Source: Octopus vulgaris
Taxonomy: Eukaryota
Assembly (NCBI GenBank): GCA_951406725.2
Contig: OX597826.1
Span: 69,254,001-69,318,000, forward strand
Reading direction: 5' to 3'
DNA: 64,000 nt
Made by a program: the position numbers and the translations under genes. This document shows positions 14,331 to 58,025 of this stretch, one piece after another. Under the pieces are notes generated by a model that did not search any database, was not told where the DNA came from, and saw only the letters and a list, made by a program, of their open reading frames with translations. Each line of letters opens with the position of its first letter. The first letter of the stretch is position 1.

Positions 14331-15475
14331 GGACATATGTTACACATAAATGTTCTGCAAGGCCAGATAATGACAACAATAACAGCAGTACGTTCCTCAT
14401 GAAATACTTCTTTCTCTCAAAAAGCAAAAACTTGCTTCGTTGTTTGCTATTTCTGCAAATAACTAACCAACGAAGCTTTTTTTTTTGTAAAAAGGCATAT
14501 ATTCATTATCAGGTTCTGCCCATACAGAAATGCAAGGTGTATTCTTACAAAGTTTGCTCACGGTCATAGTACAAGCGCAGCCAGGAATCAATTCACAACA
14601 ACATTCAAGTGATTCTACGTGAATGAAGACAGTCGAAGCCAACCAGCCAAAAGTAAATTTCTTGGTTGTTACGTTTGAATTACACTTGGAGTCAGTTCGA
14701 TAGTTAACTACATAGCTAAATAACATCGATTCCACGTTAACTTGTGTACCTAGGGTCATGAGAGAAATATCTGACTCCAGGCAATTGTCTTCAAATTTGC
14801 GGCGTACTATAGTGCAACCGCTACCTAAAGAAAATTAAATATTCACTCCAGGACAAAGACTGCTGCTACGACGCAGGAATATTATGTGGTAGAACCCACC
14901 ACTCTCAAAATATGCGTTCCAATAATTTCTTACTTTCAGCTTACACGTATTATGGACATAGATGTCAGAAGCTTTTGAACAGCAGCAAGAGAGGGGTGCG
15001 TTTTAGTTATATAGGCGAGATTTCCAGTATCATAACATACCGCAAGGAAGACACAACATGGCAATATGAATAACGAAAAGAAACAACGCTGAAATAAGGC
15101 CCCAGGGAAGACAACAGCCATGAATTGAACATAGGACTAATGTAACATTAATCTAGAATGTTATGTGCATGTGTTTGTGTTTGTGTGTGCGCGCGTGTGT
15201 GTATGTAAGTGAATGTGTGTGTGTTCATATATATATATATATATATATATATATATATATATATAATGATAAATATCAAAGTGAGTTATATACAGTAGCG
15301 GTAACACATCTTGACGTATTTTTGCCATTTCAATATGGCTAACCCCTAAGGGTGGATGCTACTGTAGTTTTTAGCCCCAGGAGGACACACTCCTCCAGCT
15401 GGCCATAGACACACTATCTGTGTCCTGTCAGTATTTGCAAAGGGAAGTCATCCTTCCCGTCTTCAACTTATGATA

Positions 15476-15520
15476 CACACGGACTCGAGTTTCGAGGTAT
15501 TGACCTCTCGTCAGCGTGTG
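15476..15520 (-). ncRNA. Type-I hammerhead ribozyme (canonical core)
   Basis: Exact reverse complement of 16153-16197. Confidence 0.9.
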
Positions 15521-15829
15521 ACAATCATAGTTGTCGCCGAGAATTAGATTTCCTTCACAAATACTTATACTTTTTCCAGCGCCCACTGTCGCTGATATTG
15601 AAAAAGTGAAATCAAACAATGATAAATATCAAAGTGAGTTATATACAGTAGCGGTAACACATCGTGACGTATTTTTGCCATTTCAATATGGCTAACCCCT
15701 AAGGGTGGATGCTACTGTAGTTTTTAGCCCCAGGAGGACACACTCCTCCAGCTGGCCATAGACACACTATCTGTGTCCTGTCAGTATTTGCAAAGGGAAG
15801 TCATCCTTCCCGTCTTCAAACTTATGATA

Positions 15830-15874
15830 CACACGGACTCGAGTTTCGAGGTATTGACCTCTCGTCAGCGTGTG
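15830..15874 (-). ncRNA. Type-I hammerhead ribozyme (canonical core)
   Basis: Exact reverse complement of 16153-16197, one monomer away from 15476-15520. Confidence 0.9.
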
Positions 15875-16152
15875 ACAATCATAGTTGTCGCCGAGATTTA
15901 GATTTCCTTCACAAATACTTATAGGAGGAGTGTGTCCTCCTGGGGCTAAAAACTACAGTAGCATCCACCCTTAGGGGTTAGCCATATTGAAATGGCAAAA
16001 ATACGTCACGATGTGTTACCGCTACTGTATATAACTCACTTTGATATTTATCATTGTTTGATTTCACTTTTTCAATATCAGCGACAGTGGGCGCTGGAAA
16101 AAGTATAAGTATTTGTGAAGGAAATCTAATTCTCGGCGACAACTATGATTGT

Positions 16153-16197
16153 CACACGCTGACGAGAGGTCAATACCTCGAAACTCGAGTCCGTGTG
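16153..16197 (+). ncRNA. Type-I hammerhead ribozyme (canonical core)
   Basis: CACACG-CUGACGA-GAGGU(CAAU)ACCUC-GAAA-CUCGAG-U-C^-CGUGUG: 6-bp stem I, 5-bp stem II, palindromic stem III ACUCGAGU, GUC triplet, predicted cleavage after 16191. Confidence 0.92.
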
Positions 16198-55542: not shown

Positions 55543-55818
55543 TCTTGTTATATAGGCGCTATGTATTTACAACCGTTTGTCTACCGCAAGACATTTTCTC
55601 CATAACAAAATACAACGAATGGCTCCCTTACGAGTTCGAATAATCTTTAAGCATATTTGAGCGGGAAACAAGTTTGTATTTGCACGCATCACTGCTTAGC
55701 GCAGTCGCTCCGTATTACAATGGTAATCCCCACTGTAACCACCATCATCATCGTGCTCATCATCATCACTTAGATTATTTTTCGTAAGTCTTTGCTGTCG
55801 GTGTTGATGTAGCTACTG

Positions 55819-55910
55819 TCTTCTTCTTCTTCTTCTTCTTCTTCTTCTTCTTCTTCTTCTTCTTCTTCTTCTTCTTCTTCTTCTTCTTCTTCTTCTTCTT
55901 CTTCTTCTTC
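55819..55910 (+). repeat. (TTC)n microsatellite
   Basis: Direct reading. Confidence 0.97.
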
Positions 55911-56059
55911 CAATCAGGACTCACGCCATTAGCTACAAAGAATAAATCTTTAATTCGAGCCTACTCTAAGCTCCTAAGAATGCATGTGGAAACTTGAAGA
56001 TCCACCCACCACACACGATAGACTGGCGGTTGCACGGGCGCGAAAGCTACGTTGTTATC

Positions 56060-56354
56060 CTCATTCCGTAAACAGTGGCTTTCCGTAACAGAGCTGAACC
56101 ATCCTGGGGTACAGAGGATTCGCAATCTAGACTAGGGCCTGAAAGTTTACCACACCAAAGTCGGTTACACGATGGTTCTTCTGCTTTGTGGCAGAAGTAG
56201 GAAGAAAGAGTGAGAGAAAGTTGTGATGAAAGAGTACAGCGGGGTTCACCACCACTACCCCCACCGGAGCATCGTGGAGCTTAGGTGTTTTTGCTCAATA
56301 AACACTCACAATGCCCGGTCTTGGAATCGAAACCAATGGGCCATTGCGCCTCCA
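56060..56354 (-). mobile_element. SINE family A head (internally deleted) with a further different tail
   Basis: gggccattgcgcctcca head and gaaagagtgagagaaagttgtgatgaaagagtacagc body; sequence to the left differs from tails 1-3. Left boundary approximate. Confidence 0.65.
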
Positions 56355-57832
56355 TTGTAGCTGCTGTTGTAATAATACTAAGAACTTGTATTGTTGTTAT
56401 TGCTACTCTCGTTGTTGCTGTTGTAACGGGTACAGTGATTAGTATTTTAATTAAAATGGAAATAACACAAGAATTATTGTTGTTGTCATTATTATTGTCA
56501 TAAATGGTGTTGTTGTTGTTTAACCCCTGGCCAGTCATGATCAGCTGGCCCATATTCAACGACATTGCAACTATGACTCATTTCTTTGTTCCTGTTTTTT
56601 TAATTTTTTTTTTTACAAACAATATATTTAGGACTACTCTACGTAATATGTGCCTCCTGTTTAACACGAAACTTTGAGATCTTTAAAGGAGAGTTGGCTG
56701 CTATTTTGAACAGGTTCAATGACCGCGTAATTGCCCCGTCTGTTTTGTTATTGGAAGTGATGTTGTCGCTATTGTTGGCGTTGTGATGCTTTGATAATGG
56801 CCGTTGTTTTTGAACTTGATGATGATGATGATTATGATGATGATATTTGTGGTTTTGTTGCTGTCGCTGTGACTGTGTTTATTTTCGGAACATTTAACAG
56901 GTTTTGCAGGAAATGGCTGTCATATTTGTCGCTGACAAAGTGTAAACATAAATTCATAGATTGCTTCTAGATTATTATTTTACTGAAAGCAACAGCAAAA
57001 ATAATAACAGGAGTATCCACAGCAACAGCAGAGTACCTCTAAACAGTGGCTTGCTCTACTAGAAATAACAGCTAAATCTATCTCAAATTACATAGTAGTC
57101 TCAACAAAATAAGAGCGACTCATTATATGATGTGATATGGGGTACAAAGCGGTTCATCATAGTTCTTCACAATGAAAGCTGACCTGGGCTAAGCAGCCAG
57201 TATCAGAGTTACGGCAACATCAGTTGTAGAGCAATACACTTGACCTATTGGGGCAGGGAATAACAATTACTTCTTAATTAAATCTCATCCTTTAATCTTA
57301 AAAGATGGAAGTAAACATTTGGTAAAGCGGTCTTAGACTACCTTTGAAAAAAAGCCAGAATTAGTACAGTTGAGCTCCTTTGTTCGTAGGTTTGCTTGAG
57401 CAAGATCTTTCTATATATAAACAATGGCAATTATAATAAGGATAGCAAAATGAGCGGAGTAACATTAGATGCAACAATAGTGAATATCGGGACAATCATA
57501 AATGCAATGAGGCAACCGGGAAGCGATTACTTCTTTTGCTTATTTCACTGATTTGTCGGCGGCCATACTGGAGCACCACATTAAAGGGCTTTTTTTTAGT
57601 CGAAGAAATCGACCCCAGGACTTATTCTTTGTAAGCCTAGTACTTATTCTATCGGTCACTTTTGCCGAACGGATACGTTACGACGGACGTAAACACACCC
57701 CAATATCGGTTGTCAAGCGATGGTGGTTAGACAAATACAAACATAAAAACACACATAAGAATATGTACATGTATGTATGTACAGGCATACATACATATAT
57801 ATATATATATATATATATATATATATATATAT

Positions 57833-58025
57833 GTAGGTCCCGGTTGATTCGGGGTTAACCACAGTAAGTAAGGTACTCAATACATAGCAGAGTAAATTAA
57901 TTTATTATATAGAAGGAGTTCTCAGGACTAGTGTTCATTCAAGAGAAATCTTCAGGAAGCTTCCTGAAGATTTCTCTTGAATGAAACAGTACTAGTCCTG
58001 TAGAAGCTCCTTCTATATAATAAAT
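57833..58025. mobile_element. TA-inserted element ending in a ~125-bp palindrome centred on AG|CT (57959/57960)
   Basis: tttattatatagaaggag...ttcaggaagc / ttcctgaagatttctc...ctccttctatataataaa; the left arm has small deletions. Confidence 0.8.
57958..58008 (+). ncRNA. Type-I hammerhead ribozyme (U10.1-U11.1 mismatch)
   Basis: AGCUUC-CUGAAGA-UUUC(UCUU)GAAU-GAA-ACAG(UACUAGUC)CUGU-A^-GAAGCU: 6-bp stem I, 4-bp stem III, GUA triplet, predicted cleavage after 58002. Confidence 0.78.

What the first reader, a model, noticed from the sequence alone, without database searches (positions are those of the whole stretch)
15265..58025. Recurrent inverted architecture with consistent polarity: 3' ends face outward into (TA)n
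Seen: five TA-embedded inserts are foldbacks (15265-16360, 22540-23375, 34555-34802, 47292-47551, 57833-58025). In all three with a readable HHR, the ribozyme-sense strand is minus in the left arm and plus in the right arm, so the 5'-truncated ends meet at the centre. Arms begin at different phases of the monomer and run across the monomer junction. Inference: both sides of a break in (TA)n primed reverse transcription on a multimeric or circular template, and the two cDNAs were joined. Established: inverted pLTRs are typical of Penelope-like insertions.
Basis: partly seen in the sequence, partly recalled or inferred. Interest (0 to 1): 0.75.

Follow-up and report, generated by a model that had tools for sequence, protein, structure and literature searches.

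The report
Head-to-head Penelope-type insertions in (TA)n
Five mirror-image DNA inserts sit in TA repeats with their cut-short front ends joined in the middle, which is the layout already published for Penelope-type jumping genes; they likely arose when the enzyme copied the element's RNA from both strands of the target, so this is an ordinary footprint and not a new system.

Summary
All five foldbacks are real, sit in (TA)n and belong to five unrelated repeat families. Polarity is head-to-head in 4 of 5 by ribozyme motif; the fifth agrees by base skew only. Only inserts 1 and 2 (353-nt monomers) run past a monomer; 3-5 are short stubs. This layout (inverted 5'-truncated copy, partial tandem, one-sided tail, (TA)n target, opposite-strand hammerheads, proposed circular template) is in print for Penelope-like elements, and this scan noted it repeatedly on other pieces of this genome. 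Best mechanism (0.55): both target strands prime reverse transcription at fixed internal starts and the two cDNAs join; one short arm ends at its family's recurrent TA-abutting end in three runs. A single cDNA folding back on itself (0.3) is not excluded, because every short arm is contained in its long arm. Circle versus tandem transcript is undecided. No genome was held; genome-wide polarity and independent support for the junctions could not be obtained. Ordinary architecture, modest mechanistic value.

The parts
15228..15265 (.). (TA)19, left target flank of insert 1
15266..15923 (-). Insert 1 long arm, 658 nt = 1.86 monomers of 353-354 nt; 45-nt tail 15266-15310; unmirrored centre 15750-15923
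15476..15520 (-). Type I hammerhead motif, copy 1 (predicted cut after 15482)
   Evidence: Rfam RF00163 32.2 bits, below gathering 34, E 4e-4
15830..15874 (-). Type I hammerhead motif, copy 2 (predicted cut after 15836)
15924..16361 (+). Insert 1 short arm, 438 nt = 1.24 monomers; blunt central junction (0-nt microhomology); outer end at the family's recurrent TA-abutting end
   Evidence: 435 of 438 columns identical to 15311-15749 plus one gap
16153..16197 (+). Type I hammerhead motif, copy 3 (predicted cut after 16191)
16362..16409 (.). (TA)24, right target flank of insert 1
22538..23027 (-). Insert 2 long arm, about 490 nt = 1.39 monomers of 353 nt; 63-nt tail 22538-22600; unmirrored centre 22941-23025; hammerhead with U3-A8 core at 22805
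23026..23375 (+). Insert 2 short arm, 350 nt; 2-nt microhomology at the junction; hammerhead with U3-A8 core at 23171 (predicted cut after 23200)
   Evidence: 333 of 340 columns identical plus a 6-versus-16-nt replacement
34555..34693 (-). Insert 3 long arm, 139 nt; CGAAA about 25 nt before CTGATGA (Naiad-like half-core layout); unmirrored centre 34665-34692
34693..34802 (+). Insert 3 short arm, 110 nt; same outer phase as the long arm; 2 substitutions
34809..34849 (.). 41 nt of unassigned sequence between insert 3 and the right (TA)30; possible tail or separate fragment
   Evidence: inconclusive
47294..47463 (-). Insert 4 long arm, 170 nt, with 81-nt one-sided extension 47294-47374; strand inferred from skew only
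47464..47552 (+). Insert 4 short arm, 89 nt; zero-loop centre on a 10-nt palindrome; 2 substitutions
57833..57959 (-). Insert 5 long arm, 127 nt, with 67-nt one-sided extension 57833-57899; worn hammerhead core at 57955
57960..58025 (+). Insert 5 short arm, 66 nt; zero-loop centre inside the 5' strand of hammerhead stem I; core at 57964, weak stem II

Best explanation
These are five head-to-head inserts of non-coding, mostly hammerhead-bearing repeat ends in (TA)n, likely made in trans by Penelope-like RT/endonuclease that likely nicked both target strands, likely started a cDNA from each nick at one of two fixed internal RNA sites, and whose two 5'-truncated cDNAs would then have been joined at the centre. 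Shown: the geometry, the polarity in 4 of 5, the one-sided tails, arms longer than a monomer in inserts 1 and 2, and one outer end at a recurrent family end. Inferred: the enzyme, the two priming events, annealing of the cDNA 3' ends through 0-10 nt of complementarity, and an uncut multimeric or circular RNA for inserts 1 and 2.
For: (1) The layout matches the published EN+ PLE unit: inverted 5'-truncated copy at the 5' end, partial tandem, one-sided tail, (TA)n target (PMC8557442; PMC3846280; PMC2377424). (2) A purified PLE protein cuts and extends both target strands, starts at two internal RNA sites whose offset is the tail, and is predicted to be a dimer (PMC11167929). (3) The short arm of insert 1 ends at the phase (15664) where 15, 15 and 24 contigs of runs X1, X2 and X5 leave the family into AT-rich letters (table 7), so it ends where a primed arm ends. 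(4) Tails of 45, 63, 81 and 67 nt on one arm in 4 of 5. (5) Two of five centres have no loop and sit on self-complementary words; two equal cDNA ends can pair there, whereas a snap-back has no need of a palindromic loop (my inference). (6) In insert 3 the family's next bases after the turn contain the 6-mer with which the short arm begins, 2 nt out of register (table 7).
Against: (1) In 5 of 5 the short arm is wholly contained in the long arm (if 34809-34849 is not element), and in 2 of 2 inserts with both tail and loop they lie on the same arm, as a fold-back on one cDNA predicts; chance 1 in 4 under independent cDNAs. (2) Insert 1 has 0 and insert 2 only 2 nt of junction microhomology. (3) The tail end of insert 1 (phase 15619) is not among the loose ends shown (319 rows not shown), so a second fixed start is not shown here. 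(4) All four copies of the 15664-15749 segment share letters that are a minority at 15673 and 15724 in X1 and X2: one RNA or one source locus, which a fold-back gives automatically. (5) A fixed short-arm end could also come from endonuclease resolution, as PMC8557442 suggests for the tail. (6) Tails are longer than the published 30-40 bp. (7) No autonomous partner was identified.
Confidence: 0.55

Rival explanations
1. One target-primed cDNA is made; its 3' end folds back or switches template onto itself and is extended as second strand, giving a hairpin whose end is resolved at a fixed site and joined to the other flank.
For: Short arm contained in long arm in 5 of 5; tail and loop on the same arm in 2 of 2. 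Same haplotype in all copies of insert 1. Turn of insert 3 at an intrinsic 6-nt inverted repeat with a loop of about 30 nt.
Against: Needs a separate step to stop the copy exactly at the family's recurrent end. Zero-loop centres in inserts 4 and 5 give only 2-4-bp intramolecular stems (inference). No complementarity at the turn of insert 1. Both-strand extension is seen in vitro (PMC11167929).
Confidence: 0.3
2. Self-priming on an antisense transcript makes a hairpin before integration, as proposed for rotifer Penelopes (PMC3846280).
For: Published to explain head-to-head units with palindromes at the junction; inserts 4 and 5 have such centres.
Against: Does not readily give outer ends at sense-strand reverse-transcription starts (PMC11167929), nor loops of 85 and 174 nt without complementarity. 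No antisense RNA evidence here.
Confidence: 0.07
3. The inversions formed after insertion, by breakage and repair at (TA)n cruciforms or by a second element landing opposite the first.
For: (TA)n is break-prone (recalled). Insert 2 carries a 6-versus-16-nt replacement that looks like a repair scar.
Against: No flank or TA is copied into the centre; arms are of one haplotype and 98-99% alike in inserts 1-4; five families show one polarity.
Confidence: 0.05
4. Fold-back chimeric reads or assembly errors created the palindromes.
For: No listed contig piece or joint from independent runs bridges a centre. A 1098-nt 100%-identical tandem copy nearby (27292-29485) shows that assembly error is possible in this window.
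Against: Arms differ at 2-7 sites; the mirror stops at element ends and never enters the flanks; offsets of 45-81 nt; loops of 0-174 nt; one end matches a family end seen in three runs.
Confidence: 0.03

Closest known systems
Insertion units of endonuclease-bearing Penelope-like elements (Penelope/Poseidon, Neptune, Naiad, Hydra): PMC8557442 (passages, supplement rows), PMC3846280 (passages), PMC2377424 (passages)
   Same: Inverted 5'-truncated copy joined to the 5' end (head-to-head called the most frequent), partial tandem, tail on one end, (TA)n targets (listed for octopus Naiad and Hydra), palindromes at the inverted junction.
   Different: No ORF in these inserts; tails 45-81 nt against 30-40 bp; no sequence link to a named PLE was found.
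Metazoan non-LTR retrozymes: PMC7229834 (passages); bioRxiv 10.64898/2026.07.22.740005 (part 1 of 5 and passages)
   Same: Non-coding ~350-nt tandem monomers under 45% GC with a type I hammerhead; argued to be non-autonomous PLE derivatives. Fits inserts 1 and 2.
   Different: PMC7229834 never uses 'inverted' (0 occurrences); circular RNA and cleavage are not shown here; inserts 3-5 are not tandem.
PLE hammerheads: PMC4209133 (passages)
   Same: Opposite-strand hammerhead pairs 100-700 bp apart, U3-A8 core variant, palindromic helix III, and circular RNA proposed as template for more-than-unit copies.
   Different: Schistosome and other hosts; no mechanism for the inversion in the passages seen.
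PAc (Poseidon, Anolis) in vitro mechanism: PMC11167929 (parts 1-2 of 4)
   Same: Both strands cut and extended, AT-rich targets, two internal starts defining the tail, uncut RNA as main substrate.
   Different: Autonomous element; the parts read do not connect this to inverted genomic copies.
L1 twin priming: bioRxiv 10.1101/2024.08.27.596794 (passages)
   Same: Two target nicks prime two cDNAs that join by microcomplementarity; 3'-proximal ends face outward.
   Different: L1 uses poly(A) plus a chance internal primer next to the first cDNA's end, so arms barely overlap; here arms overlap almost fully, there is no poly(A), and the ends are not adjacent in phase.

Membership tests
EN+ Penelope-like element insertion unit | Inverted 5'-truncated copy joined at the 5' end (head-to-head) | tested here: met
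   4 of 5 by motif, fifth by skew
EN+ Penelope-like element insertion unit | Partial tandem forming a pLTR-like repeat | tested here: met
   Inserts 1 and 2 only; offsets 352-354 nt
EN+ Penelope-like element insertion unit | One-sided tail of 30-40 bp | tested here: inconclusive
   One-sided extension in 4 of 5, but 45-81 nt; element origin shown only for inserts 1 and 2
EN+ Penelope-like element insertion unit | (TA)n or AT-rich target | tested here: met
   5 of 5
EN+ Penelope-like element insertion unit | Hammerhead motif in the terminal repeat | tested here: met
   Clear in 1 and 2, weak in 5, half-core layout in 3, absent in 4
EN+ Penelope-like element insertion unit | Target-site duplication | not testable with these tools
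   Hidden in (TA)n; no empty site seen
Autonomous Penelope-like element | ORF with RT and GIY-YIG endonuclease | tested here: not met
   Inserts are 193-1096 nt; longest stop-free frame of either monomer in tandem is 66 aa. Other ORFs of the window were not scanned against Pfam
Named octopus Naiad or Hydra family | Sequence match to a published consensus | tested here: inconclusive
   0 of 5 exact 12-mers found in the PMC8557442 supplement; insert 3 shares only the motif layout of Naiad tails seen
Non-LTR retrozyme | Non-coding tandem monomers of about 300 nt, GC under 45% | tested here: met
   353 nt, GC 0.43 and 0.40, inserts 1 and 2
Non-LTR retrozyme | Two consecutive units with a complete type I hammerhead | tested here: met
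   Insert 1 long arm only; insert 2 has one per arm
Non-LTR retrozyme | Self-cleavage and circular monomeric RNA | not testable with these tools
   Only contigs were available
L1-type twin priming | Poly(A)-primed arm, and second arm starting next to the first arm's truncation point | tested here: not met
   No poly(A); phases 304 versus 46 (insert 1) and 137 versus 64 (insert 2) are not adjacent

The most novel reading that the evidence does not exclude
Young ORF-less hammerhead repeats of this genome are circular RNAs that a dimeric Penelope enzyme copies from both target strands at once, from two fixed internal starts and past one full turn; their thousands of copies are a natural record that would settle how inverted pLTRs and tails form in all Penelope-like elements.
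Probability: 0.25. Interest if true: 0.55.

Novelty: new member of a known kind. Interest (0 to 1): 0.27.

Why it matters
The pattern itself is expected for Penelope-like elements. What remains open in print is how it forms: PMC8557442 calls the tandem/inverted structures the product of still undefined steps. High-copy, young, non-coding families such as that of insert 1 (3450, 1578 and 3453 contigs laid in three runs) allow a simple genome-wide count (tail arm versus loop arm, end phases, arm haplotypes) that would choose between two cDNAs and one folded-back cDNA. This window supplies only two informative cases.

Tried and rejected
No own genome is held, so no genome-wide polarity count. Rfam scan: dominated by microsatellite hits to miRNA models; two sub-gathering RF00163 hits among the 150 of 216 rows shown. 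Inverted-repeat tool showed only inserts 1 and 2 among its 25 longest. Run search: 24 runs, all contigs, no RNA holder listed. Laying 4 runs on insert 3: no strand-change joint listed, TA-adjacent parts masked; depth at 34804-34827 is about one sixth of the bin before in 4 of 4 runs, which ending in TATATA explains, and 34828-34851 has cover in 1 of 4, so the 41-nt piece stays unassigned; low cover of 32-227 at 34732-34755, over a right-arm-specific letter, is only a hint that the locus exists elsewhere. Laying 4 runs on one monomer of insert 1: 4 joints listed, none a strand change, tables cut, so no verdict on the junction; the run guessed to be RNA covers 30 of 30 bins but is not shown to be RNA. 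The 'goes back 350/351' joints only close my circularly permuted reference. Metagenome scans: 0 hits; 1 hit, L001, a 22-nt chance match in an unrelated GC-rich contig. Shared variants among monomers could not be polarised. Rejected: classical L1 adjacency; crossing the hammerhead cut site as proof of a circle, since uncut RNA is the main PAc substrate. Searches for a printed two-cDNA model of PLE inversions listed 4, 4, 3 and 3 papers; none of those read states it, several listed were not read, and subscription reviews were not available. bioRxiv 10.1101/2024.12.14.628481 (passages) concerns chromosomal foldbacks and added little. bioRxiv supplements could not be seen.
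Full report
Setting. The window is 36.5% GC and full of (TA)n runs. No genome is held. Earlier AI notes call the genome octopus; I did not test the species.

Observation. Self-comparison shows five foldbacks at the stated places, from five families that do not match one another in the window BLAST. Longest exact inverted matches are 296, 92, 45, 64 and 52 nt, against shuffle maxima of 14-20. The mirror ends with the insert; unique flanks are unrelated. 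Arms differ at 4 sites in 438 (insert 1), 6 substitutions plus a 6-versus-16-nt replacement in 340 (insert 2), 2 in 110 (insert 3), 2 in 89 (insert 4) and about 6 nt of small gaps in 66 (insert 5). Read fold-back artefacts would give perfect mirrors that run into the flanks, so they are unlikely, although no independent contig piece or joint confirmed a centre.

Anatomy. Insert 1 (15266-16361): long arm 658 nt, short arm 438 nt, monomer 353-354 nt, three type I hammerhead motifs (two on minus at left, one on plus at right), 45-nt tail and 174-nt unmirrored centre both on the left arm, blunt junction. Insert 2 (22538-23375): arms about 490 and 350 nt, monomer 353 nt, one hammerhead per arm with a U3-A8 core, a variant described in PMC4209133, 63-nt tail and 85-nt centre on the left arm, 2-nt microhomology. 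Insert 3 (34555-34802): arms 139 and 110 nt, same outer phase, 28-nt centre, CGAAA about 25 nt before CTGATGA as in the Naiad tails printed in the PMC8557442 supplement; 41 unassigned bases follow on the right. Insert 4 (47294-47552): arms 170 and 89 nt, no loop, 81-nt extension, no motif. Insert 5 (57833-58025): arms 127 and 66 nt, no loop, 67-nt extension, worn hammerhead. Neither monomer codes (66 aa at most).

Polarity. Motifs give sense minus on the left and plus on the right in 4 of 5 (chance 1 in 16). Insert 4 agrees by T-over-A skew (0.27 and 0.32), the direction seen in six single stubs whose strand I set by motif (0.39-0.56). Foldbacks are not the rule: 0 of 8 other hand-picked stubs had an exact inverted 20-mer within 600 nt, so roughly 5 of 13, not a systematic count. 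The claim about different start phases and crossing the monomer junction holds for inserts 1 and 2 only.

Family data. The family of insert 1 is large (3450, 1578, 3453 and 306 contigs laid in X1, X2, X5, X15) and covered round the whole monomer in 4 of 4 runs. Among the loose ends shown, 15, 15 and 24 contigs in X1, X2 and X5 leave the family into AT-rich letters at phase 15664, exactly where the short arm ends; the long arm's end (15619) is not among the rows shown (319 hidden). All four copies of the 15664-15749 segment in the insert share letters that are the minority at 15673 and 15724 in X1 and X2 (about even in X5; summed contig depths, not allele frequencies), which points to one RNA or one source locus. 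For insert 3, 84, 64, 77 and 62 contigs continue past the turn at 34693; their next letters hold the 6-mer with which the short arm starts, 2 nt out of register.

Mechanism. I favour priming from both target strands (0.55). A purified Poseidon protein cuts and extends both strands of AT-rich DNA, starts at two internal RNA sites whose offset is the tail, and is predicted to dimerise (PMC11167929, parts 1-2 of 4). Two such cDNAs, truncated and joined at their 3' ends, give exactly this unit. The recurrent short-arm end, the one-sided tails and the two zero-loop centres on self-complementary words fit. Against it, every short arm is contained in its long arm, and tail and loop share an arm in 2 of 2 informative cases, which a single cDNA folding back predicts (0.3); junction microhomology is 0 and 2 nt in inserts 1 and 2. 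Antisense self-priming (PMC3846280), later rearrangement and artefact take the rest. Three of the four arms in inserts 1 and 2 exceed a monomer, so their template was a multimer, a circle or re-entered by a template jump; the window cannot choose. Crossing the cut site proves no circle, as uncut RNA is PAc's main substrate. Classical L1 twin priming works alike but predicts adjacent, barely overlapping arms and poly(A), which are not seen.

Comparison. PMC8557442 (passages; supplement rows) describes the inverted 5'-truncated copy, partial tandems, the one-sided 30-40-bp tail and (TA)n targets, including octopus Naiad and Hydra. PMC3846280 calls head-to-head the most frequent form and notes palindromes at the junction. 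PMC2377424 shows the same unit in Drosophila virilis. PMC4209133 reports opposite-strand hammerhead pairs and proposes circular templates. Inserts 1 and 2 fit non-LTR retrozymes (PMC7229834; bioRxiv 10.64898/2026.07.22.740005), without evidence here of cleavage or circles. I found no paper stating the two-cDNA model for PLE inversions, but several listed papers and the subscription reviews were not read. This scan noted the same architecture and model many times on other pieces of the genome; those notes are not independent evidence.

Verdict. Real, well-defined, and ordinary for its class. The families may be undescribed members. The value lies in a testable mechanism that needs the whole genome. 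Interest 0.27.

Noticed in passing
window 27292-29485: A 1096-1098-nt tandem duplication at 100% identity that starts at a Naiad-like stub; very recent event or assembly error.
   Followed up: no
window 11095-11274, 33565-33741, 34097-34289, 45050-45252: Single-arm TA-embedded stubs with intact or worn type I hammerhead cores, two related pairs, no inverted partner.
   Followed up: partly
window 27292-27440, 28388-28536, 37742-37838, 13960-14150: Single-arm stubs; the first three have GAAA about 25 nt before CTGATGA, the layout of Naiad tails and of insert 3, the fourth resembles them by eye.
   Followed up: partly
window 34809-34849: 41 unassigned bases on the right of insert 3; if they are the family's tail they would rule out fold-back for this insert.
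   Followed up: partly
window 22875-22880 versus 23086-23101: The arms of insert 2 differ by a 6-versus-16-nt replacement; the left version repeats a neighbouring 7-mer, like a templated repair scar.
   Followed up: partly
window 23026-23375: The short arm of insert 2 stops 13 nt short of one full turn of the monomer; may be chance.
   Followed up: no
window 19793-21078, 61679-62163, 18028-18637, 5510-6054, 49479-49716: Tandem arrays and single copies of a 184-nt unit, about 93% alike within arrays; two arrays face each other at 18-21 kb.
   Followed up: no
window 42833-43387: A 555-nt element with 35-nt terminal inverted repeats (91%), resembling a Tc1/mariner remnant (recalled); a foldback of another kind.
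   Followed up: no
window 23400-24256 and 36765-37135: Related TA-embedded elements ending in a short hairpin and CTAG, Helitron-like (recalled).
   Followed up: no
window 7106-7485, 35450-35834, 42083-42477, 62608-62993: A young 385-nt SINE-like family, 92-96% alike.
   Followed up: no
window 55490-55545: A solitary type I hammerhead-like motif on plus, not next to (TA)n.
   Followed up: no
window 51679-52834: GC-richer degenerate tandem repeat with stop-free frames of 228-239 aa.
   Followed up: no
L001:867-888: 22-nt exact match to insert 3 inside a hairpin of an unrelated GC-rich metagenome contig; chance.
   Followed up: yes
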